A DNA stretch of 64,000 nucleotides from Lachnospiraceae bacterium (GCA_031272985.1 JAISSU010000008.1:38800-102799), one strand, 5' to 3'. Counted from the stretch's first letter, positions 336 through 63,787 are shown. Made by a program: numbers and translations. The notes: generated from the sequence alone by a model not told the origin.

Positions 336-468
336 AGCTCTTGTTCTCCTTTCGCAGTGAAAGCATTACGTACGTTCCCGTCGTATTTTCAAAAGCCCCC
401 AAACTCTCAAATTATTACTCTCTCTACTACTATAGAACCTGACTTTTTCAAACAATATTACAACGCGT

Positions 469-3054
469 TTAACTTTCTGTCTGTTCTGATGTTTCTGTAT
501 TTGTTGTTGCCTCCTGTGTATTAGATGATCCTTCGACTTGCGATTCGGCAATTTCCGAAGTTTCTTTCGCATCCTCTATGTCGTCATCAGAACCTTTTCT
601 TACTTTCGCGATGCTGGCAACGGTTATTTCATCATCGCTGGATAAATTAATGAGTTTAACCCCAACAGTAATTCTCCCGACTACCGAAATATTTGAGCAG
701 GCCATGCATATTACGGTGCCGGCGGTATTAATTATCATGATCTTATCGTCTTCATCAACGGCTTTTACACCTACGACATCCCCTGTTTTTTCGGTAATCT
801 TGTAACATTTTACGCCTTTACCTCCGCGGTTTTGACTCGTAAATTCGCTTATTAAAGTGCGTTTCCCCATACCTTTTTCGGAAACAATCAGAAGATGTGT
901 GCCCTGAACATCAAGCTGCATTCCTATGACTTCGTCGGAATCATTTAAATTCATGCCCCGCACACCCATTGAAACACGACCGGTTGAGCGTACATCGGTC
1001 TCATGAAATCTGATGCACTGACCGAATTTAGTAACAAGGAATACATCTTTTTCATTGTCTGTAAATTTAACCTCTATCAGCTCGTCCTCTTCTCTTAATA
1101 CAATTGCGGTAAGCCCTGTTTTACGGACGTTTTGATATTCGCGTATCGGGGTCTTCTTTACGAGACCCTTTTTCGTCGCCATAAGGAGATATTCACCCTC
1201 GCGGTATTCATCAATCGGAATTACCGCTGTTATTTTTTCTTTTTCTTCTCCTTCTTCTGAAGGTTGTAATTGCAGGAGATTAACGATATTGGTACCGCGC
1301 GCGGTACGCGAAGCTTCCGGAATTTCATAGCCTTTTAAGCGATATACCCGTCCCTTATTCGTAAAGAACATAATATAGTGATGAGTATTGGTCATAAACA
1401 ATTCTTCGACGTAATCATTGTCAATCGTCTGCATACCAATGACACCTTTTCCGCCGCGATTTTGGACTTTGAAGGTATCATTTTGCATGCGTTTAATGAA
1501 TCCGAGCTTAGTCATTGTAATTACGACGTCACTACGCGGAATTAAATCCTCATCCTTTAAATCCATTTCATCAAAACCAATTACGGTTCGACGTGCGTCG
1601 GCATATTTGGTTTTAATATCAATAATTTCCGTGCGGATCACTCCTAAAAGGAGCTTCCTGTCAGCCAAAATAGCTTTTAATTCAAGAATCTTCTTTTGAA
1701 GCTCGGCATATTCGGCCTCGAGTTTTTCGCGCTCCAGACCGGTAAGAGCTCGAAGCCTCATATCCACTATTGCCTGAGCCTGCGCATCGCTAAGCCCGAA
1801 TCTATCCATTAATGACTGCTTTGCGATAGCCACGGTCTGCGAGGAACGAATTATTTTGATGACTTCGTCAATATTATCAAGGGCAATTATCAAGCCCTCC
1901 AATATGTGAGCCCTCTCCTCGGCTTTATTTAATTCATACTGTGTACGCCTGGTTACGACCTCTTCCTGATGCTTTAAGTAGTATTTAAGCATTTCCAGAA
2001 GATTCATAACCTTAGGCTCATTATTAACGAGAGCCAGCATGATTACGCCAAAGGTATCCTGCAATTGCGTATGCTTATACAATTGATTTAATATGACATT
2101 CGCATTTACATCTTTTCGAAGCTCAATGCAAATCCTCATGCCCTCGCGGTTAGACTGGTCACTTAAATCTGTAATTCCTTCTATCTTTTTTTCTTTAACA
2201 AGGTCAGCTATTTTCTCAATTAATCTGGCTTTATTGACCATGAATGGAAGCTCGGTGACGACTATCCTGCTCTTTCCATTGTCCATGGTCTCAATATCCG
2301 TAATCGCCCGTACGCGAATTTTTCCGCGCCCGGTGCGATAGGCTTCATTAATTCCTAAAGTCCCCAGTATTTTCCCTCCTGTCGGAAAATCGGGACCGGG
2401 GATGATATTTAAAATATCTTCAAGACTGGTTTCGCCCGTTTCTTCGATTTGATCGTCAATAATTTTAACGACTGCGGAAATGACCTCCCCGAGATTATGC
2501 GGCGGAATATTGGTAGCCATACCGACAGCGATTCCGGAAGTTCCATTTACTAAAAGATTCGGAAATCTCGCGGGGAGAACTACAGGCTCTTTTTCTGTCT
2601 CATCGAAATTAGGAGTGAAGTCGACCGTATTTTTATTTAAGTCCGCAGTGAGCTCCATGGAGATCTTTGAAAGTCTCGCCTCGGTATAACGCATGGCGGC
2701 GGCACCATCTCCGTCGACGGAACCGAAATTTCCGTGCCCGTCTACGAGAGGGTGACGCGTTGACCATTCCTGCGCCATATTAACCAGAGCCCCGTAAATA
2801 GACGAATCGCCGTGCGGGTGATATTTACCCATTGTATCACCGACGATACGCGCACATTTACGATGCGGTTTATCAGGTCCGTTATTTAGCTCTATCATGG
2901 AGTAGAGAATACGCCTCTGTACGGGCTTTAAACCGTCGCGGACGTCCGGCAGCGCCCTTGATGCGATAACGCTCATCGCGTAATCTATGTACGAGGTCTC
3001 CATCGTTTTCTTTAAATCTACCTCATGAATCTTATCAAATATGGTATCTTCCAT
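469..3054 (-). CDS. gyrA: DNA gyrase subunit A
   Basis: Track ORF 469..3114. Carries GyrA hallmarks ([19 protein letters not shown], repeated C-terminal beta-pinwheel blades) and an acidic C-terminal tail. Likely true start is MEDTIFDKI at 3054; the first 20 codons of the track ORF are an upstream extension. Confidence 0.93.
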
Positions 3055-50219: not shown

Positions 50220-50293
50220 CGTCCATAAGAGGATTCGAACCTCCGGCCTGTCGCTTAGGAGGCGACCGCTCTATCCTGCTGAGCTATATGGAC
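50220..50293 (-). tRNA. tRNA-Arg (anticodon CCT)
   Basis: 74-nt cloverleaf on the minus strand. 7-bp acceptor stem (GTCCATA/TATGGAC), D-arm GCTC..GAGC, anticodon stem GTCGC/GCGAC with loop CTCCTAA, T-arm GGAGG-TTCGAAT-CCTCT. CCA is not encoded. Confidence 0.9.
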
Positions 50294-55509: not shown

Positions 55510-55942
55510 ATGGATATTTTTCATAAAGTCGGAGAAATCGCAAGGACGACGGATTTCGCAGCCGCCGGGCTGAAGAATTATGAGGTCGCGGCACTTTGCA
55601 CCCCGTGAGTGGACGGTGGCCATCCCTCGTTCTTTTTCACGCTCTGTGAAAGTGATGCCGGAAGTTCCTGTAAAAGCCTATTATGTCCAAAGTAAGTTTC
55701 ACCGCTACGGTGTAACAATCGGTGATTTTAACGGTGTTACGCTCCCTATTTATGACCGAGAACGCACACTGTGCGATTGCTTTAAATACCGCACGAAGCT
55801 CGACAATGAGATATTTAATAAAGCAATCAACGCCTATGTAGCCGACCCGAAAAAGAATCTTGTCAAACTTTCAAAATATGCAAAAGAACTTGGCGTCTAC
55901 AAAAAACTGATGAATGTTATGGAGGTGCTACTCAATGGCTGA
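55510..55942 (+). pseudogene. AbiEi-family antitoxin gene, frameshifted
   Basis: The N-terminal wHTH segment MDIFHKVGEIARTTDFAAAGLKNYEVAALCTP* ends at 55608. The C-terminal part continues in the +1 frame (55580..55942: ...VPVKAYYVQSKFHRYGVTIGDFNGVTLPIYDRERTLCDCF...). Its stop overlaps the next ATG as ATGGCTGA, the usual AbiE coupling. Confidence 0.5.
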
Positions 55943-56154
55943 TATTGTTGCATCCGTGCTCGCACGACTCAAAAACAAGGCAGTGGAAAGCCTTCTGCCG
56001 TAAAATTGATACAAAAACGGACGATTACAGTGTGGTTTTGGTGACCATAAAACAATTCCTTGGCGAACCATTTGTAGCGACAGTTAAGAACAAAGACTTT
56101 GAAAAACATTGGGACGCTTTAAATGCAAATTGGAAAAGTATAGTTTGCAAATAG
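55935..56154 (+). pseudogene. AbiEii/AbiGii nucleotidyltransferase toxin remnant (internal deletion)
   Basis: The family N-terminus MADIVASVLARLKNKAVESLLP ends in a stop after 22 codons. A second frame (to 56154) carries a family-like C-terminus ...DYSVVLVTIKQFLGEPFVATVKNKDFEKHWDALNANW. Roughly 200 central codons are absent. Confidence 0.45.
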
Positions 56155-56237
56155 AAGAGGTTGGCAAGGTTTTCTCAGGCCGAAACAGTAGTTGCAACAC
56201 TTAAACTGCGTTATTATATCAAGCGGTATGTCTATCT

Positions 56238-56420
56238 ATGGCTGTCCATACCGCCGTATGACTGATGCTCTGGCCTGTCATCTCGCTTATTGCTTGCGAT
56301 GCGTGACGGTAGGTGTTTCGGTCACGGGTTTGCGCCATTTCCTTATCGTATTTTTCCAGCTTATCCCGAAGTTTCCCACGACCGGCTTCCAAACATTTTT
56401 CATAAATTGTATTTGTTAAT
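56238..56420 (-). pseudogene. gene fragment encoding a C-terminal HTH-like segment (origin unclear)
   Basis: The minus-strand frame gives ...LEKYDKEMAQTRDRNTYRHASQAISEMTGQSISHTAVWTAIDRHTA*. It has no plausible N-terminus and abuts the intron 5' region. Confidence 0.25.
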
Positions 56421-57031
56421 CTAAAAATGGCCCACTCATGTTGCGCACTCTTCAGCAGTATTACTTTCGCAAAATTAATTCTACTGATTCTGTGGGCATT
56501 AGGGAAGGGGGTAACCTCTTTCCTTTTTTAGTATGACGGGCATGCCGTCAGTCTGTGGTGAAAGTCCACAAGGGGCGTAGTTGCCGACGAACCCCAAAGC
56601 GACTCCCAAGGCTTACACTGTGAAGTGTGGGCGAGAAGAAGGGATAGCGAAATCGTAGCCTGACGAACAGAAACCTGATATAAGGCGTACATGGCGGATA
56701 AGCTGGCTAAAGACAGCGAAGTCCAAAAGGCAACCGTAACCCATGTGCGTAAATCAGGCAGGTAGACGAGGAAAGACTGGGAGGCTTATCCCGTGAGGTC
56801 TCACAGGCGGTATCATTAGCCGTAGTAACAATGAACTGTGAGAAGTCAGCAGAAGCCGTAGTAGGCAGCGCTTTGAAATGGGCACTGCCAAAGGGCTGAA
56901 CAACGTAACTGTGTAATCAAATGTATGCTCCATGGAATACCTGACGGCAGGAAGGGCAAAACGTAAATGAGCAGACCCTGTGCCACATAGGGCGAATCCA
57001 TGAAACCGGAAAGGAGAAAGCACACAATGCA

Positions 57032-58255
57032 ATGTCAGAACTGTTGGAAAAGATACTGTACAAAGAGAACATGAATGCTGCCTACAAAAGAGTCTGCGCC
57101 AACAAAGGGGCGGGCGGAGTAGACGATGTGACGATTGAAGAACTGGGAGATTATATCAAAGAGAACTGGGCGAGTATCAGGGAGCAAATTAGGCACAGGG
57201 AATACAAACTCCAGCCAGTCAGGAGGGTAGAAATACCCAAGCCGGACGGAGGAGTGAGGGAATTGGGAATTCCTACGGTAATGGATAGAGTAATTCAGCA
57301 AGGCATCGTACAGGCAATAGGTCCTATGTGTGAGCCAATGTTTTCGGAATGGAGCTACGGCTTCAGACCGAACAGAAGCGGAGAAATGGCTATCAGGCAA
57401 TTACTTAAGTACCTGAACGAGGGATACGAGTGGATAGTGGATATAGACCTGGAGAAATTTTTCGATAACGTGCCGCAGGACAGGCTTATGAGCCTTGTCC
57501 ATGACATAATCAAAGACGGTGATACGGAATCGCTTATCCGCAGATACCTGAAAGCAGGAGCCATGACGCCACAGGGATACAGAGAAACAAGACTCGGCAC
57601 ACCGCAGGGAGGAAACCTGTCGCCGCTTTTGTCAAACATTATGTTAAATGAACTGGACAAAGAACTGGAAGCAAGAGGACTTCGGTTCACAATATATGCC
57701 GATGACTGTGTGATAGCAGTAAAAAGCGAAACAAGTGCTAAGAGGGTCATGCGGACGGTGACGGAATGGATACAGAGGAAACTGGGATTAAAGGTCAACG
57801 TGACGAAAACCCAAATCGCAAGACCGCTGAAGCTGAAATACCTCGGATTCGGGTTCTACAAAGACAATAAAACAAAAGAGTGGAAGTGCAGACCCCATCA
57901 GGAATCTGTGAAGAAACTCAAAGTCAGACTGAAAGAACTGACGTGTAGAAAAATGCCTGGAACAGTCACAAGCAAGATTGGGAAAATCAATCAGGTGACA
58001 AGAGGGTGGATAAACTATTACGCTCTCGGCGCTATGAGAACAGCAATGACAGAGATTGACGCACATCTAAGAACAAGACTTAGAATCATTATCTGGAAAC
58101 AGTGGAAAGTACCAGGAAAACGGCAATGGGGATTGCAGAAGTTAGGGGTCAGCAAAGACCTTGCCCGGCTCACAGCGTACTGTGGCGATCGTTATTACTG
58201 GGTTGTCACAAAAACATGTGTGGTCAGGGCAATCTCCAAAGCTGTATTTGCTTGA
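57032..58255 (+). CDS. group II intron reverse transcriptase/maturase (intron-encoded protein)
   Basis: 407 aa. RT domains 0-7 with the YADD active site (FTIYADDCVIAV) and an X/maturase domain (RGWINYY). No D/En domain. Confidence 0.92.
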   Translation: MSELLEKILYKENMNAAYKRVCANKGAGGVDDVTIEELGDYIKENWASIREQIRHREYKLQPVRRVEIPKPDGGVRELGIPTVMDRVIQQGIVQAIGPMCEPMFSEWSYGFRPNRSGEMAIRQLLKYLNEGYEWIVDIDLEKFFDNVPQDRLMSLVHDIIKDGDTESLIRRYLKAGAMTPQGYRETRLGTPQGGNLSPLLSNIMLNELDKELEARGLRFTIYADDCVIAVKSETSAKRVMRTVTEWIQRKLGLKVNVTKTQIARPLKLKYLGFGFYKDNKTKEWKCRPHQESVKKLKVRLKELTCRKMPGTVTSKIGKINQVTRGWINYYALGAMRTAMTEIDAHLRTRLRIIIWKQWKVPGKRQWGLQKLGVSKDLARLTAYCGDRYYWVVTKTCVVRAISKAVFA

Positions 58256-58449
58256 GTATTCCGGGTGTTTTTGAACCGCCAATCCGGTTGCATGATACCG
58301 TTGTTCCGGAATAACCGATACCAATATTCCGGAGGCAGAATACCAACATTCCGGCTAACGATACCGCTGTCCATGTAAAATAATAAGTTCTCCTTTATAC
58401 TGTATCTATACGCTTTATAGCGTAAATACAGTTGAAGGAGGTCGTCATT

Positions 58450-60003
58450 ATGACCAAATATCGTGAGATTATCCGGCTTGCCGGATTAAATCTCAGCCAG
58501 ACTAACATTGCGCTCAGTTGTAATGCATCCAAGACCACGGTCAACAAGGTTCTCAAAGCAGCAAGAGAAAAGAACATTGCGTGGCCCTTGAATCAGAAGC
58601 TGACAGATGATGTCTTGGCTAAAATGCTGTTTCCGGAGGCGGAACAAGCTGCCGTTGCCTCCAATAAGCGGATGCCGGATTATGACCACATCCGCAAGGA
58701 ACTTCTCCGTAACGGAGTTAACAAAAAGCTCCTGTGGACGGAATACCTGGAGGAATGCCGTCTCGCTGGCGATGAGCCGCTCATGTATTCCCAGTTCTGC
58801 TATTACATTCAGCAGGATGAGCAGAAGCGGCGTGCTACGATGCATATCAACCGCAAACCCGGAGAACAGGTCGAGGTCGACTGGGCAGGAGATCCGGCCC
58901 ATCTCACCGATCCGGATACCGGTGAAATCATCAACGCATATTTTTTCGTCGGGGTCATGACATACAGCCAGTATCCGTATGTCGAAGCGTTTGTTGATGA
59001 AAAACAGCCATCATGGATCGCCGCACATGTCCATATGTATGAATACTTTGGCGGCGTTGCAAAAATCCTCGTCCCAGATAACTGCCGTACTGCAGTTGAC
59101 CACAACAAAGGCTGGAAAGACCAGCGGATCAATGCAGTCTATCAGGGGATGGCAGAACATTATGGCACTGCCGTTATCCCCGCCCGCGTCCGGGCTCCGA
59201 AGGATAAGCCAAATGCTGAGGGCTACGTGGGTAACATCTCCACTTGGATTACAGCAGCTCTGCGCGATGAACCGTTCTTTTCCATCGGTGAACTTAACCG
59301 GGCCATCCACCAAAAACTGGAGGCCTTCAGCCGACGCCCTTTCCAGAAAAAAGAGGGCAGCCGGTATGAGATCTTCTGCAACGAAGAACTGCCACTGCTG
59401 ATGCCTTTACCCACTGCCCCGTATGAACTGGCGGAATGGAAACAAGCCACCGTCCAGTTCAATTATCACATATCTTGCGCTGGAATGCTATACTCAGTTC
59501 CGCATGAATACATAAAACGCAAGGTTGATGTACGGGTCACAGGTACGACGATTGAAATATTTTATAGTAATAACCGTATTGCCTCCCACCGCCGTCTCTA
59601 CGGTCGCAAGGGGCAGTACAGCACCATTACCGAGCATATGCCGGCCTCCCATCAGCAGTATCTGGAGTGGAACGGCGACCGTTTCCGCAAATGGGCGAAA
59701 CGGATTGGCACCGGCACATACCAGGTAGTGGATGGCATCCTTAACTCCAAACGTGTGGAACAACAGTCCTACAGGAGCTGTATGGGCCTTCTGAAGCTTG
59801 CCGACAAGTATTCTGTCGACCGTCTGGAGGCAGCCTGTACCAAGGCCCTCTCCTTCACCGCCACGCCCAGTTACAAGAGCATCAAGAACATCCTTGATAC
59901 CGGCAACGACAGGGCAGCACCATCGGACAAAGGGCTGGCACCTGATGCACACACACAGAACAGCCATGCGCTCACCAGAGGCGCTGATTACTATAGGAGG
60001 TAA
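58450..60003 (+). CDS. istA: IS21-family transposase IstA (N-terminal HTH plus DDE integrase core)
   Basis: Track ORF 58432..60003. The likely start is MTKYREIIRL. DDE core with ...VEVDWAGDP... and a C-terminal multimerisation region. Confidence 0.9.
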   Translation: MTKYREIIRLAGLNLSQTNIALSCNASKTTVNKVLKAAREKNIAWPLNQKLTDDVLAKMLFPEAEQAAVASNKRMPDYDHIRKELLRNGVNKKLLWTEYLEECRLAGDEPLMYSQFCYYIQQDEQKRRATMHINRKPGEQVEVDWAGDPAHLTDPDTGEIINAYFFVGVMTYSQYPYVEAFVDEKQPSWIAAHVHMYEYFGGVAKILVPDNCRTAVDHNKGWKDQRINAVYQGMAEHYGTAVIPARVRAPKDKPNAEGYVGNISTWITAALRDEPFFSIGELNRAIHQKLEAFSRRPFQKKEGSRYEIFCNEELPLLMPLPTAPYELAEWKQATVQFNYHISCAGMLYSVPHEYIKRKVDVRVTGTTIEIFYSNNRIASHRRLYGRKGQYSTITEHMPASHQQYLEWNGDRFRKWAKRIGTGTYQVVDGILNSKRVEQQSYRSCMGLLKLADKYSVDRLEAACTKALSFTATPSYKSIKNILDTGNDRAAPSDKGLAPDAHTQNSHALTRGADYYRR

Positions 60004-60008
60004 GGACG

Positions 60009-60785
60009 ATGACAATTCAAAGTACAATGGATAAACTGATCGAAATGCGCCAGACAGCCATGTCAGATGCGTTCCGTATACAGATTGATGACCCTAAAAT
60101 GAAAGAGGTTGCCTTCGAAGACCGCTTCGGGATGTTGGTCGATGTTGAGTACAGCAACCGGAAGCACAACAGCTTAAAGCGCCTGATCTGCAATGCCGGG
60201 TTTGACCAGCCGGAGGCTCATATTTCCGATATTAACTATACATCCGGCCGCAGGCTCAACCGGGTATTAATCGAAAGGCTCGCAACCTGTGAGTACATCA
60301 CAGAGCACAGGAACCTCTTTATCACAGGTGCCACGGACAGCGGCAAGACCTATCTGGCCTGCGCATTCGGCATGGAGGCGTGCAAGCAGCGTTTCAAGAC
60401 CAAATACATCCGTCTTCCTGACCTTCTCCTTGAACTGGAGATGGCACGAAGCGACGGCACTTACAAAAAAGTACAGGCCAAGTATGCGAATCCCGTTCTT
60501 CTCATCATAGATGAATGGCTCCTGCTGAAGCCGACAGAATCAGAACAGCATGACATTCTGGAACTGCTGCACAGGAGACGCCGGAATTCTTCCACGATCT
60601 TCTGCTCACAGTATGACTCAAACGGATGGTATGACCAGCTTGGCGGAGATGACAGTCCTCTTTCTGAGGCCATTCTCGATCGCATCAAGTATGATGCCTA
60701 TAAGATTAATATCATTCCAACAGACCCGGCAAACTGCCGGTCTATGCGGGAGGTATACGGATTAGATCCGGCATTAAGCGAGTAA
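60009..60785 (+). CDS. istB: IS21-family helper ATPase IstB
   Basis: 258 aa. Walker A TGATDSGKTYLACAFG, Walker B LLIIDEW. DnaC-like. Confidence 0.9.
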   Translation: MTIQSTMDKLIEMRQTAMSDAFRIQIDDPKMKEVAFEDRFGMLVDVEYSNRKHNSLKRLICNAGFDQPEAHISDINYTSGRRLNRVLIERLATCEYITEHRNLFITGATDSGKTYLACAFGMEACKQRFKTKYIRLPDLLLELEMARSDGTYKKVQAKYANPVLLIIDEWLLLKPTESEQHDILELLHRRRRNSSTIFCSQYDSNGWYDQLGGDDSPLSEAILDRIKYDAYKINIIPTDPANCRSMREVYGLDPALSE

Positions 60786-61086
60786 ACTCGCACAAAGCAG
60801 TTTATTAATGGTATCCCTGTTCCGGTCTAGCGGTATTGTCTGAACGGAACAGCGGTATCCGTTCCTTCAGAACACCGGTACAATTTCATAAGAATATACA
60901 TTGCTAAGGCTGGACTTGTAAGCTGTCTTGACTACTATAATGAGCGTCATGCTTTGAAGTTATGTTGAAGCGCCGTATGCCGAACGGCACGTACTGGTGG
61001 TGTGAGAGGGGAGAGAAAATCTCCCCTACTCGATTTTCTTCTTTCGCCTTCACTTGCCAATTAAAATTTTACACTTAGATGGAAAA

Positions 61087-62604
61087 TCACCAAAACCAAT
61101 GCTTTTTCTTTCGCATTAAATAGACAGTGAGCAGACCTATAAAAAGAGCACTTGGAAATACTATCATTTTCCATGTGAATTCAAAACTTGTTAGCTTAGA
61201 AGACGTAATAAGCCATTGTCCGCCATGATCAATAGAAAGTATGTCCCCCTTAACAGCATTAACATTTTCGTATCGCCCTTTTGTTTTATTATACAGATAA
61301 AGATAAGGATATTCCTCACTAAAATGTATCTCAATCTCCACTTTGCCGGGCAAGTTTTTTTCGTTATTCACAACAAAAGACAGCCCCCCATTTTCTATAT
61401 TAAATTCGATAAACGTATTTAATGAATTTTCAACGTTTTTGATGTCTTTACCATTAATAGAGACAATGTAATCCTGATAATCAACACAAAGCGTTATGTC
61501 TTTTTCGTATAATAGTTTTAGAAGACTCTCAGTGATAACCGGTAGTTCTTCCCCAGAAAAATTGATTCTATCTCCTGATTTGGCATTCTTAATTTCTTCA
61601 GAATAGATATTTGGGGGTTCTACTACTAGTTTTTCGCTTTCTACGTTGTTTGTTTGAGATTCATCGCTATCGCTTGTATCATTAACAATAATTGTTACCA
61701 CTTTGCTTGAATCCCAAGAAGAAATAATTACTGAACCAGAACCTTTGCTTTTTGCTGTTACGACTCCTTTGCTTGACACCTGTAAGATTTCGGGCTGAGT
61801 TGTTTCATAAGTTAATGCCTGATCAGCATCTTTTGGTAAAACGCTAGCACCAAGCTGATAGGTTTCTGCAACCTTCATAATTATGTACTCTTTTTTTACG
61901 TTAATAGATTGAGTTTGTTTTTTTACGGTAATTGTCCAACTTTTGCAGAATTCACCTACAGAAGCAGTTATCACCGCTTGCCCTTGTGCTATTCCTTTTA
62001 TTTGTCCGTTGGAGCTTACTGTTGCAATAGTATTATTAGAGGAAGAAAAAACAATGTCTTTGTTTGTTGCGTTTTGCGGTAGCACTGTCGCAGATAACTC
62101 TATAGTTTCATCTACTTTTAGAGTGTCTTTTAGACCAACCACTTCTATATTGGTAACAGGAACGAAAGGCGTCGTTTCAGGACTTTTGACTGCAATCTGA
62201 ATTTCCTTTTCAACTTCACCAGCTTGTACCACTATTATTGCTGTCCCAACTGACAACGCCGATATTCTTCCCAACATATTGATTGAGGCGACAGCTTCAT
62301 TTGATGATGAAAAACTCACTGCTTTATCTATTACAGTCTCGGGTAATATGGTTACAGACAGCAATTGTGATTCGCCAACTATCATTTCTTTACGATAATC
62401 ACCTAAGTCAATGTCTACCGGGACAGTGGTATATTGGGCTCCATTCGTATCACCAGCATTTTGCAAATTTGAGGCAGAACTTGACGCATAAACATGTTGC
62501 GCAAAAGCTATAGAAACTGCAAGGCATACTATGCCTGCAAAACAAATCAATCTATTAATTTTAGAGCTATTTAGCAAATCACTTATATAATCTTTTATTA
62601 ACAT
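61087..62604 (-). CDS. cell-surface protein with bacterial Ig-like (Big_2) repeats, signal peptide and C-terminal TM anchor
   Basis: 505 aa. Signal peptide; at least three Big_2-like repeats (...SVTILPETV...KAVSFSSSNEAVASI...GRISALSVGTAII...); C-terminal hydrophobic helix plus RKKKHWFW. Confidence 0.6.
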   Translation of the reverse strand: MLIKDYISDLLNSSKINRLICFAGIVCLAVSIAFAQHVYASSSASNLQNAGDTNGAQYTTVPVDIDLGDYRKEMIVGESQLLSVTILPETVIDKAVSFSSSNEAVASINMLGRISALSVGTAIIVVQAGEVEKEIQIAVKSPETTPFVPVTNIEVVGLKDTLKVDETIELSATVLPQNATNKDIVFSSSNNTIATVSSNGQIKGIAQGQAVITASVGEFCKSWTITVKKQTQSINVKKEYIIMKVAETYQLGASVLPKDADQALTYETTQPEILQVSSKGVVTAKSKGSGSVIISSWDSSKVVTIIVNDTSDSDESQTNNVESEKLVVEPPNIYSEEIKNAKSGDRINFSGEELPVITESLLKLLYEKDITLCVDYQDYIVSINGKDIKNVENSLNTFIEFNIENGGLSFVVNNEKNLPGKVEIEIHFSEEYPYLYLYNKTKGRYENVNAVKGDILSIDHGGQWLITSSKLTSFEFTWKMIVFPSALFIGLLTVYLMRKKKHWFW

Positions 62605-62638
62605 TTCTCCTCTAAATACCTGTTGTGTTCTCTGTTAG

Positions 62639-63787
62639 TTATCTTGATAATAATCCTAATGCTTCCATCAGATATTCGAAATATGAAATCTCCTCATACT
62701 TTATTCGAATCTCGACGGTTGTTCCATTTGTAAGATTAAACTTTCTTCCTGATTTACTCACCAAGTAATCATTGTCTATTTGAATTGTCACCCTAAAATA
62801 GCTATTAGTGCTTGTAGTGCCTTGTTCATTTGTGCTTTGACCTGAAGTAATATCACTATCTATTTGAATCAATTCACCATTTATCGTACCATACACCGAC
62901 TCCAATAGACCATTTACCACCACATCAACAGAATCTCCAACGTTAACACGTGGGGCATCGTTTGCGTTGATATATGCAATTATCTGATATCTTCCGTTTT
63001 CTTGGGCAACACTCCCAAGCGTATTTCCGGCTTGAATAACCATTCCCTCTTTTAACTCTTCTGTAAAAAAAATGGTACCGTTTTCATTGGCTTGAAGGTT
63101 GTAATCAGACTGCCCATCATTAATTGCATCTTTTTGCAATGTTAAATTTTCTAATTCTGCTTTATCGTTTGAAATATTCTCACTTATTGACTTTAGTGTA
63201 GAATAGTAAATCTCGCTTATCTTCCCCTCGCTTTTTTCTACCTCTGCTTGTATTTGAGAGTCTGTATAACCATAAGACTCATATACCGAGACATCAATCT
63301 CATTTTGTTTTATTTGGCTCTTATAAGCTTCAAACTGATTATAATACTCGCTGTCTTCAATATTAGTTCCTGAAAAGTAATTAACATCATCTATTATTGA
63401 TTTTTCCAGAAGCTTGAGATTCTCGATTTGTTTTTCGAAAATAGCAATTTTGCCATTCACTTGTATTAGTTGCAAATCCAAATCTGTGCTCTCAATAGAC
63501 AGGATAGTGTCACCTTTCTCTATATAATCACCATTCTTAAAAAAAATATCTTTTATTTTCCCCGAATACGCTGACATAATTAAATTTTTATTATCGCTCT
63601 CAACTTTTCCGCTCCCCTTTACGATAAAAACTTTAATTGAAAAAAAGCTCCAAATAAATGTTGCCAATAATAGCAATAACACCACGAAAATCAAATAATA
63701 TCCAAATGGCGGCACTTTTTTATCATATAGTAAACGGCTGTCTGTGAGTTCAGAGAGTTTTTTTACGTCCATATTCAAGCTATTCAC
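62639..63787 (-). CDS. HlyD-family secretion accessory protein (bacteriocin/peptide-exporter adaptor type)
   Basis: 382 aa. N-terminal TM helix, long coiled coil, C-terminal beta-barrel-like domain. A GTG or internal ATG start is possible. Confidence 0.6.
   Translation of the reverse strand: MNSLNMDVKKLSELTDSRLLYDKKVPPFGYYLIFVVLLLLLATFIWSFFSIKVFIVKGSGKVESDNKNLIMSAYSGKIKDIFFKNGDYIEKGDTILSIESTDLDLQLIQVNGKIAIFEKQIENLKLLEKSIIDDVNYFSGTNIEDSEYYNQFEAYKSQIKQNEIDVSVYESYGYTDSQIQAEVEKSEGKISEIYYSTLKSISENISNDKAELENLTLQKDAINDGQSDYNLQANENGTIFFTEELKEGMVIQAGNTLGSVAQENGRYQIIAYINANDAPRVNVGDSVDVVVNGLLESVYGTINGELIQIDSDITSGQSTNEQGTTSTNSYFRVTIQIDNDYLVSKSGRKFNLTNGTTVEIRIKYEEISYFEYLMEALGLLSR

What the first reader, a model, noticed from the sequence alone, without database searches (positions are those of the whole stretch)
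56492..61034. Nested mobile elements: an IS21 element inserted into domain IV of an endonuclease-less group II intron
The RT/maturase ORF (57032-58255) is preceded by about 540 nt of intron domain I-III-like RNA. The expected domains V and VI are not found directly after the ORF. Instead an IS21-family element (istA/istB, with GATACC..TTCCGG subterminal repeats) begins about 36 nt after the stop codon.

A convincing domain V (AGC-GCCGTATGCC-GAAC-GGCACGTACTGG, with the conserved CGUAUG/CACGUAC pairing) and a domain VI hairpin with a bulged A 7 nt from the putative 3' end AT appear only after the IS, at 60967-61034. The IS has therefore split the intron's domain IV.

The intron-encoded protein lacks an En domain. 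The intron is not inside a protein-coding exon and sits next to a decayed toxin-antitoxin gene and other gene fragments, as expected for class C-like retrohoming into non-coding DNA.
Basis: partly seen in the sequence, partly recalled or inferred. Interest (0 to 1): 0.6.

Follow-up and report, generated by a model that had tools for sequence, protein, structure and literature searches.

The report
IS21 element inside a class-C intron
A bacterial class C (IIC) group II intron, sitting behind a transcription terminator, has been split by an IS21-family insertion sequence that landed inside the intron's own reverse-transcriptase gene; this is an ordinary case of one mobile element disabling another.

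Summary
The finding is real and its main reading holds, with corrections. The intron runs 56531-61034, not from 56492. It is a bacterial class C (IIC) intron. Evidence: a terminator hairpin directly upstream, a 4-nt EBS1 that covaries with the 5' exon, a CGC triad, a short domain V, and an En-less 427-aa protein colinear with the E. rectale IIC maturase.

The IS21-family element is 58253-60900 (2648 bp, TG...CA ends) with a 5-bp duplication, TTGCT. Independent copies elsewhere fix these ends. It does not start 36 nt after the stop codon. It sits inside the reverse-transcriptase gene, 20 codons before the native stop, and the apparent stop TGA is the first three bases of the IS. The missing tail (KAGLVSCLDYYNERHALKLC*) is at 60906-60968, followed by domain V (60969-61001) and domain VI (61004-31, branch A 61028).

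Removing the IS gives an 1851-nt intron 83-86.5% identical end to end to intact relatives. Domains V/VI are backed by covariation. It arises from a window-specific C-to-G change that breaks a conserved pair.

The copy is probably crippled. No near-identical intact copy is known. Nothing here is new in kind.

The parts
56501..56530 (+). 5' exon target motif. It comprises a terminator-type hairpin (stem-loop 56501-56525, GNRA-like loop GTAA), a T-run, and IBS1 TTTA (56527-56530) immediately before the intron.
   Evidence: The terminator scan finds the hairpin. All 16 aligned relatives have their own, unrelated hairpin + T-run at the same place. IBS1/EBS1 complementarity is shown.
56531..57031 (+). 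Intron ribozyme domains I-III and the 5' part of domain IV. The 5' end is GUAUG, and EBS1 is TAAA at 56708-56711.
   Evidence: Rfam RF02001 at 56614-56778 (126.7 bits) and RF01998 at 56821-56896 (47.7 bits). Homology with relatives starts exactly at 56531. Only position 56708-11 covaries with the last 3-4 nt of the 5' exon: 12-13 of 17 sequences, 9-10 different sequences. A conserved GAGGAAAG motif lies at 56768-75.
57032..58252 (+). First 407 codons of the intron-encoded reverse transcriptase/maturase (native length 427). The YADD motif is present.
   Evidence: Pfam RVT_1 + GIIM. TIGR04416 at 402.6 bits. Relatives encode 427 aa. The protein is colinear with PDB 7UIM chain D, a 427-aa IIC maturase, E = 3.9e-149.
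58248..58252 (.). Left copy of the 5-bp target-site duplication TTGCT.
   Evidence: The same 5 bp occur at 60901-60905. Intact relatives have a single copy here (GTATTTGCTAAGGC).
58253..60900 (+). IS21-family insertion sequence, 2648 bp, with ends 5'-TGAGTATTCCGG...AATATACA-3'. Its first three bases, TGA, create the premature stop of the RT ORF.
   Evidence: Homology to independent copies (L083 at 96.5% nt, plus L092, L091, L095, L100, L118) starts at 58253 and ends at 60900. Those copies share the termini, and several have their own 5-7 bp duplications: TCCTT, TCAACCC, TCTTTG, AATGG, CTATC, AACGG.
58253..58375 (+). Left terminal region of the IS with repeated (G/A)ATACC-N4-5-TTCCGG motifs, the presumed IstA-binding repeats.
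   Evidence: Direct repeat families D1/D2 at 58292-58309, 58315-58332, 58340-58354 and 58358-58375, and inverted repeats I1/I7 with the right end. This matches the multi-repeat TIR layout described for IS21 (PMC10122671).
58450..60003 (+). istA, the IS21-family DDE transposase (517 aa from the ATG at 58450; an RBS GGAGG lies upstream).
   Evidence: NCBIfam NF033546 'IS21 family transposase' at 213.3 bits (cutoff 160). Pfam Mu-transpos_C_2. Called as 517 aa in L001.
60009..60785 (+). istB, the AAA+ helper ATPase (258 aa).
   Evidence: Pfam IstB_IS21 at 150.1 bits (cutoff 24.1). NCBIfam NF038214 at 178.4 bits, below its cutoff of 200.
60808..60900 (+). Right terminal region of the IS, with the repeat motif in inverted orientation and a terminal CA.
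   Evidence: Inverted repeats I1, I7 and I9. Termini are conserved in other copies.
60901..60905 (.). Right copy of the target-site duplication TTGCT.
60906..60968 (+). Displaced 3' end of the RT ORF: 20 codons (KAGLVSCLDYYNERHALKLC) plus the native stop TGA (60966-60968).
   Evidence: Translation of the right flank. It aligns with the C-termini of all 427-aa relatives and with residues 410-423 of the E. rectale IIC maturase.
60969..61001 (+). Domain V, of IIC type: CGC triad at 60971-73, 3-bp distal stem, GAAC loop, AC bulge. It has two deviations: G60970 (C in relatives, breaking a C-G pair) and an extra U at 60995.
   Evidence: Alignment A1 of 68 sequences. All 13 DV pairs are supported, 6 of them by compensatory changes. 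Pair 4-34 is C-G in 56 of 58 distinct rows, and the window is one of the 2 exceptions. The extra U is shared with 10 relatives. IIC criteria come from PMC1702495.
61004..61034 (+). Domain VI hairpin (61004-61031) with bulged branch-point A at 61028, and the intron 3' end ...CUCGAU at 61034.
   Evidence: 7 of 11 DVI pairs have compensatory changes. Homology among relatives ends after CTCGAT. The MFE fold gives the same hairpin with z = -5.0.

Best explanation
A bacterial class C (IIC) group II intron retrohomed into the DNA just downstream of an intrinsic-terminator hairpin in a Lachnospiraceae genome. Its EBS1 (TAAA) pairs with the exon's TTTA. Later, an IS21-family element (istA/istB) transposed into the intron by ordinary DDE cut-and-paste/strand transfer and made a 5-bp duplication (TTGCT).

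The insertion point is inside the intron-encoded reverse transcriptase/maturase gene, 60 nt before its native stop. That places it in the part of domain IV just 5' of domain V. The IS terminus supplies a TGA, so the protein now ends 20 residues early and loses a conserved C-terminal segment of the thumb/DNA-binding region. The catalytic domains V and VI now lie 2.65 kb from the rest of the ribozyme.

Shown: element identities, exact boundaries, the duplication, colinearity with intact relatives, and the class.

Inferred: the copy is now crippled or dead as a mobile intron. The reasons are the truncated maturase, the large insert, and a window-specific C-to-G change that breaks the conserved base pair under the catalytic CGC triad. 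The IS itself looks intact and potentially active.
For: Boundaries and colinearity:
- Removing 58253-60905 gives an 1851-nt intron that is 83-86.5% identical over its full length to intact introns in other genomes.
- It also restores a 427-codon ORF ending ...FAKAGLVSCLDYYNERHALKLC*, like the relatives.
- The 5' end at 56531 and the 3' end at 61034 are the points where 16 relatives stop being alike.

IS ends:
- Independent copies match exactly 58253-60900, share the TGAGTATTCCGG...ATATACA termini, and have their own 5-7 bp duplications.
- IstA matches NF033546 at 213 bits. IstB matches Pfam at 150 bits.

Class IIC:
- Terminator hairpin 5-6 nt upstream.
- A 4-nt EBS1 covarying with the exon.
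- CGC triad and 3-bp distal DV stem, matching the criteria in PMC1702495.
- En-less IEP colinear with the 427-aa E. rectale IIC maturase.

DV/DVI structure: 98% of cells paired, 13 pairs with compensatory changes, 0 of 500 shuffles as good, slid controls at most 46%.

Decay:
- G60970 is one of only 2 exceptions (the other being L025, which appears misaligned) among 58 distinct sequences at a C-G pair.
- The predicted DV/DVI fold is weaker than in relatives: -31.4 versus -35.5 and -39.3 kcal/mol.

Single site: the truncated RT, the IstA and the neighbouring gene were found only in this same arrangement.
Against: - Loss of function is inferred, not shown. The ribozyme 5' part is otherwise well conserved, with only 3 window-unique changes at invariant columns.
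- The RT keeps YADD and the X domain.
- Domain IV can in principle tolerate inserts, and a maturase from another intron copy could act in trans.
- The extra U in DV is shared by 10 relatives at different sites, so it is probably tolerated.
- No IS-free allele of this exact site was found, so the order of events rests on the duplication and on comparison with relatives at 88% identity or less.
- The two contigs showing the arrangement may derive from the same sample, so they are not necessarily independent assemblies.
Confidence: 0.92

Rival explanations
1. The RT ORF (57032-58255) is complete, and the IS inserted about 36 nt downstream of its stop codon in non-coding domain IV RNA.
For: An ORF with a stop at 58253-58255 exists and carries RVT_1 + GIIM. 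The obvious repeat motifs of the IS start near 58292.
Against: Nearly all close relatives encode 427 aa. The missing 20 codons are found in frame right after the IS. Independent IS copies share sequence from 58253 onward, so TGAGTATTCCGG... belongs to the IS.
Confidence: 0.01
2. The 5' and 3' intron pieces come from two different intron copies, joined by recombination between two IS copies or another IS-mediated rearrangement. On this view there was no single simple insertion.
For: The region is rich in mobile-element debris: AbiE remnants and an ISLre2 fragment. IS-mediated rearrangements are common (general knowledge).
Against: A perfect 5-bp duplication flanks the IS. The two pieces abut precisely, without loss or gain of a single base relative to intact relatives, and the ORF frame is restored. 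Both pieces have the same closest relatives, L002 and L023. No second intron or IS copy is in the window.
Confidence: 0.03
3. The composite is still a working intron. The 4.5-kb RNA folds and splices, using its truncated maturase or one supplied in trans, and carries the IS as cargo in domain IV.
For: Domains I-III, V and VI are all present and mostly conserved. IBS1/EBS1 match. IS and intron are on the same strand. The extra U in DV occurs in relatives that have spread to different sites.
Against: - The maturase lacks a C-terminal segment conserved from these relatives to the E. rectale protein.
- A conserved DV pair is broken only here.
- The composite is seen at one site only.
- None of 80 related IS copies is in an intron.
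Confidence: 0.04

Closest known systems
Group IIC (bacterial class C) introns with solved RNPs or proteins: the Eubacterium rectale IIC intron maturase (PDB 7UIM/7UIN, 427 aa) and GsI-IIC RT (6AR1)
   Same: - The reconstructed IEP has the same 427-aa length and is colinear over residues 2-421 (E = 3.9e-149, 500 bits).
- It has RT + X/thumb domains and no En domain.
- The C-terminal motif GL(V/I)S.LDYY is shared.
   Different: The window copy is interrupted by an IS. Its protein is cut after residue 407, and its DV carries an extra U and a broken basal pair. Its nearest relative anywhere is 88% identical.
B.h.I1 of Bacillus halodurans, the reference IIC intron (PMC1702495)
   Same: It sits a few nt downstream of a terminator stem-loop. 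It has a 3-4 bp IBS1-EBS1, a CGC triad, a DV distal stem 2 bp shorter than in IIA/IIB, an AGGAA-containing motif, and a bulged A in DVI.
   Different: It belongs to a different lineage. No direct sequence comparison with B.h.I1 was made here, and absence of EBS2 was not tested.
IS21 family insertion sequences such as IS21 and IS5376 (PMC10122671)
   Same: It has the two genes istA (DDE transposase) and istB (AAA+ helper), terminal inverted repeats built from several repeated motifs, a terminal CA dinucleotide, and a short target duplication.
   Different: It is an unnamed gut-Clostridia lineage. No match was found among 72,556 plasmid records by megablast. The closest copy is 96.5% identical, in a fermentation metagenome. 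IstB scores below NCBIfam's equivalog cutoff (178 against 200).
Nested bacterial mobile elements (introns in IS elements, introns in introns; e.g. PMC3522654)
   Same: One mobile element lies inside another. Such intron/IS combinations are well documented.
   Different: The direction here is IS into intron, rather than intron homing into IS. It looks accidental, since 0 of 80 related IS copies lie in introns.

Membership tests
Group II intron, bacterial class C (IIC) | Encodes a reverse transcriptase/maturase (RT + X/maturase domains) within domain IV | tested here: met
   Pfam RVT_1 (151 bits) + GIIM (59 bits). TIGR04416 at 402.6 bits against a cutoff of 300.
Group II intron, bacterial class C (IIC) | IEP lacks the endonuclease (En/HNH) domain | tested here: met
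   There is no HNH hit. The reconstructed protein has 427 aa and is colinear with the 427-aa E. rectale IIC maturase. The class property is stated in PMC4424553.
Group II intron, bacterial class C (IIC) | Inserted shortly downstream of an intrinsic-terminator stem-loop (or attC), not in an ORF | tested here: met
   The hairpin at 56501-56525 plus T-run ends 5-6 nt before the intron. Each of 16 relatives has a different hairpin + T-run at the same place. Criterion from PMC1702495.
Group II intron, bacterial class C (IIC) | Domain V with CGC instead of the AGC catalytic triad | tested here: met
   Triad columns 5-7 of A1 are C-G, G-U, C-G in 56-58 of 58 distinct sequences. In the window they are CGC at 60971-73. 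Criterion.
Group II intron, bacterial class C (IIC) | Domain V distal stem 2 bp shorter than in IIA/IIB (3 bp) | tested here: met
   The distal stem is 3 bp (GCC/GGC) plus a 4-nt loop. It is supported by compensatory changes at 2 of its 3 pairs.
Group II intron, bacterial class C (IIC) | Short (3-4 bp) IBS1-EBS1 pairing with the end of the 5' exon | tested here: met
   Only intron position 56708-11 (TAAA) is complementary to the last 3-4 exon nt in 12-13 of 17 introns, with 9-10 different sequences.
Group II intron, bacterial class C (IIC) | No EBS2/IBS2 pairing | not tested
   This needs a full domain I secondary-structure model, which was not built here.
Group II intron, bacterial class C (IIC) | Conserved AGGAA in the 11-nt epsilon-prime bulge | tested here: inconclusive
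   AGGAA is present at 56769-73 and is conserved in 16 of 17 aligned introns. Its structural position was not verified.
Group II intron, bacterial class C (IIC) | Domain VI with a bulged branch-point A near the 3' end, and Rfam group II models | tested here: met
   DVI is supported by 7 compensatory pairs, with a bulged A at 61028. RF02001 and RF01998 are above gathering. RF00029 does NOT hit the window, but it hits relatives that lack the extra U.
Group II intron, bacterial class C (IIC) | Self-splicing / retromobility activity | not testable with these tools
   This requires RT-PCR or in vitro splicing.
IS21 family insertion sequence | IstA DDE transposase | tested here: met
   NF033546 at 213.3 bits against a cutoff of 160. 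Pfam Mu-transpos_C_2 at 74.9 bits.
IS21 family insertion sequence | IstB AAA+ helper ATPase encoded directly downstream of istA | tested here: met
   Pfam IstB_IS21 at 150.1 bits against a cutoff of 24.1. NF038214 at 178.4 bits is below its cutoff of 200. The gene starts 5 nt after the istA stop.
IS21 family insertion sequence | Terminal inverted repeats made of multiple repeated motifs, ending in CA (5'-TG...CA-3') | tested here: met
   The ends are TGAGTATTCCGG... and ...AATATACA, conserved in at least 11 independent copies. There are 3-4 motif copies on the left and inverted copies on the right. Criterion from PMC10122671.
IS21 family insertion sequence | Short direct target-site duplication | tested here: met
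   TTGCT flanks the window copy. Other copies have 5-7 bp duplications. The family's usual range of 4-8 bp is from my own knowledge and was not checked here.

The most novel reading that the evidence does not exclude
The interrupted intron may still be spliced, with a maturase supplied in trans by another IIC copy in the genome. The IS21 element would then ride inside domain IV as cargo. It could be copied to new terminator sites by retrohoming, or its expression could depend on intron RNA processing. A weaker variant: this IS21 subgroup has some preference for IIC intron DNA, given a second independent case in L078.
Probability: 0.03. Interest if true: 0.5.

Novelty: new member of a known kind. 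Interest (0 to 1): 0.15.

Why it matters
Biologically it matters little. It is a clean, fully resolved example of one selfish element knocking out another in a gut Lachnospiraceae genome.

Its practical value is for annotation:
1. The public record calls the 407-aa product a group II intron RT/maturase. It is in fact a C-terminally truncated protein whose stop codon belongs to an IS.
2. Rfam's DV/DVI model (RF00029) misses a whole sub-lineage of IIC introns that carry an extra U in domain V. Such introns would be scored as lacking a catalytic core.
3. The exact boundaries, the EBS1/IBS1 pair and the duplication give a ready-made test case for mobile-element annotation pipelines.

Tried and rejected
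1. Rfam at the permissive threshold found no RF00029 hit in 56000-61400. At first this argued against a real DV/DVI. I rejected that reading after relatives with the same extra U also failed (L002, L008), while relatives without it scored about 46 bits, and after covariation supported the fold.
2. Relatives share nothing upstream of 56531.
3. It is offset by 2 nt from the conserved CGC and is created by the unique G60970.
4. Exact-sequence look-ups of the RT, the IstA and the neighbouring Big_2 protein aimed to find an IS-free or intron-free allele. Only the same arrangement was returned, in one Logan contig.
5. A megablast of the IS against plasmids found no match. A distant search of the intron against plasmids gave only 64-71% identical introns in Tetragenococcus, Streptococcus, Bacillus and others.
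6. A search for further intron or IS copies in the window found none.
7. A test for an IS target preference for introns found 0 of 80 IS loci containing an RT.
8. A search of 5.8 billion protein clusters for a near-identical intact copy gave a best intact hit at 88%.
9. A literature search for IS21 nested in group II introns found nothing specific.

Full report
WHAT IS THERE

ORF listing and family scans confirm three genes on the + strand:
- An RT/maturase ORF at 57032-58255 (Pfam RVT_1 + GIIM; TIGR04416 at 402.6 bits).
- An IS21-family transposase gene, istA (58450-60003; NF033546 at 213 bits, above its cutoff of 160).
- The helper ATPase gene, istB (60009-60785; Pfam IstB_IS21 at 150 bits).

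Rfam finds group II domain I-IV RNA just upstream of the RT ORF: RF02001 at 56614-56778 (126.7 bits) and RF01998 at 56821-56896. The Rfam DV/DVI model RF00029 gives no hit anywhere in 56000-61400, even at E<=10.

COMPARISON WITH INTACT RELATIVES

A scan of species-representative genomes with the RT protein returned 80 loci, mostly gut Clostridia/Lachnospiraceae. Fifteen of them are 84-89% identical at the protein level.

In nearly all of the close relatives the ORF is 427 codons and ends ...ISK(D/E)V(F/L)AKAGL(V/I)SCLDYYNERHALKLC*. The window's ORF ends ...ISKAVFA* after 407 codons. The sequence just right of the IS reads, in frame...AKAGLVSCLDYYNERHALKLC*.

A multiple alignment of a reconstruction (window up to 58252 joined to 60906 onward) with 16 relatives is colinear through the junction, with no base gained or lost. 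The reconstructed 1851-nt intron is 83-86.5% identical over its full length to L023, L002, L014, L007 and others.

However, it lies inside the IEP gene, 60 nt before the native stop (60966-60968). It is not 36 nt after an intact ORF. The apparent stop TGA at 58253-58255 is the first three bases of the IS.

IS BOUNDARIES

A metagenome scan with IstA gave 80 independent copies. Their homology to the window begins at 58253 and ends at 60900, within one base.

All of these copies start TGAGTATTCCGG and end ...ATA(T/A)ACA. Several are flanked by their own 5-7 bp direct duplications: TCCTT, TCAACCC, TCTTTG, AATGG, CTATC and AACGG.

The window copy is 2648 bp and is flanked by TTGCT (58248-52 and 60901-05), which is present once in intact relatives.

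There are 3-4 direct copies on the left and inverted copies on the right. This fits the multi-repeat TIR layout and terminal CA described for IS21 (PMC10122671).

INTRON BOUNDARIES AND CLASS

- 5' end: all relatives become alike exactly at GTATGACGGGCATG, which is window 56531. Upstream, each has a different hairpin followed by a T-run. In the window this is the hairpin at 56501-56525, found by the terminator scan.
- EBS1: a scan of all intron columns for complementarity to the last 3-4 exon nucleotides found one place only, 56708-11 (TAAA, against exon TTTA). It is complementary in 12-13 of 17 introns, with 9-10 different sequences. This is a short EBS1-IBS1 pairing.

DOMAINS V AND VI

In a 68-sequence alignment of DV/DVI, the structure I specified is paired in 98% of cells. 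It has 13 pairs with compensatory changes. It beats all 500 shuffles, and slid controls reach at most 46%.

DV has a CGC triad (60971-73), a 3-bp distal stem, a GAAC loop and an AC bulge. The IIC hallmarks listed by Toor et al. (PMC1702495) are CGC in place of AGC, a distal stem 2 bp shorter, a 3-4 bp IBS1-EBS1 pairing and a terminator stem-loop upstream. The window matches them.

The IEP lacks an En domain. It is colinear with the 427-aa E. rectale IIC maturase of PDB 7UIM/7UIN (E = 3.9e-149). The intron is therefore a class C (IIC) intron. Absence of EBS2 was not tested.

WHY RFAM MISSED DV/DVI, AND THE 'AGC'

RF00029 scores about 46 bits on relatives with ...GUAC-GG..., but it fails on L002 and L008, which have ...GUACUGG... 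like the window. This extra U (60995) is shared by 10 relatives at different genomic sites, so it is probably tolerated.

In addition, the window alone has G instead of C at 60970. This turns the C-G pair below the triad into G-G. That pair is C-G in 56 of 58 distinct sequences; the window is one of the two exceptions, and the other (L025) appears misaligned.

The predicted fold is still the same but weaker: -31.4 kcal/mol, against -35.5 for L002 and -39.3 for L004.

STATE OF THE COPY

- The 5' ribozyme part is well preserved, with only 3 window-unique changes at columns invariant in 16 relatives: 56612, 56946 and 60970.
- The RT retains YADD.
- The protein has lost 20 residues that are conserved across the family and align to GLISMLDYY in the E. 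rectale protein.
- The catalytic domains are 2.65 kb away from the rest of the ribozyme, and a conserved DV pair is broken.

I infer that the copy is crippled. This is not shown.

The exact RT, the IstA and the neighbouring gene are found only in this arrangement. The best intact relative among 5.8 billion protein clusters is 88% identical. No recent sister copy is therefore known. That search also shows the truncated protein is recorded at NCBI from a Lachnospiraceae MAG.

CONTEXT

Upstream lie three remnants:
- The C-terminal half of an AbiEi antitoxin (55580-55942; profile positions 88-196 of 198).
- A C-terminal scrap of AbiEii (55945-56154).
- A fragment of an ISLre2-type transposase on the minus strand (56219-56392).

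IS THE NESTING MORE THAN CHANCE?

None of the 80 other IS loci contains an intron RT. One of the 80 intron loci, L078, carries a related IS21 element (IstA 71% identical, opposite orientation). It splits domain I after intron nt 50 and has a GTAGCT duplication.

That makes two independent events in co-resident abundant elements. This is compatible with chance, and I see no evidence of targeting.

VERDICT

Three corrections apply: the 5' boundary, the IS left end with ORF truncation, and the triad identity.

Nothing departs from known kinds. Intron/IS nesting is well documented (e.g. PMC3522654). Interest is low.

Noticed in passing
L078:410-3040 (CAKQVG010000004.1, uncultured Clostridia MAG): This is a second, independent IS21-in-IIC-intron event. 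A related IS21-family element (IstA 71% aa identity, opposite orientation, about 461-3034) splits domain I of a related intron after nt 50. It has a GTAGCT duplication on both sides.
   Followed up: partly
window 60995; also L002, L003, L008, L011, L014, L015, L020, L069, L074, L079 (DV 3' strand): A sub-lineage of these IIC introns carries an extra U in the basal helix of domain V (GUACUGG instead of GUACGG). Rfam RF00029 fails to reach its gathering score on them, so the catalytic core goes unannotated.
   Followed up: partly
window 55580-56154 (+): These are remnants of an AbiE type IV toxin-antitoxin / abortive-infection pair. One is the C-terminal half of AbiEi (PADLOC E = 7e-36, profile 88-196 of 198). 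It is followed by only the last ~50 residues of AbiEii.
   Followed up: partly
window 56219-56392 (-): A 57-aa ORF matches residues 37-77 of the ISLre2-family transposase model (E = 6e-5). It is probably another decayed mobile-element fragment between the AbiE remnants and the intron's target hairpin.
   Followed up: no
L010:4780-4820: In this relative the native stop codon TGA is mutated to TTA (GTTATGTTTAACC). The RT ORF therefore reads on through domain V, giving 439 aa.
   Followed up: no
L040-L043, L046, L054 (Bacteroidales/Muribaculaceae relatives): These relatives have a conserved DV, but the sequence after it (GAGAGGAAAGGAAACGAAAGTAGG...) does not align with the DVI of the Clostridia introns. 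They may have a different or longer domain VI, or a 3' extension.
   Followed up: no
window 61087-63787 (-) and beyond (gene calls in L163): Downstream, on the opposite strand, lies a cluster resembling a bacteriocin-type export system. It includes a Big_2-repeat surface protein, an AprE/HlyD-like barrel protein and a Peptidase_C39 ABC transporter. The intron sits at the 3' end of this convergent cluster.
   Followed up: no
window 50220-50293 (-): A tRNA gene (Rfam 68.7 bits) lies about 6 kb upstream of the intron. In two relatives (L012, L017) a tRNA also lies upstream of the intron; in L017 it is within ~100 nt of the intron's target hairpin.
   Followed up: no
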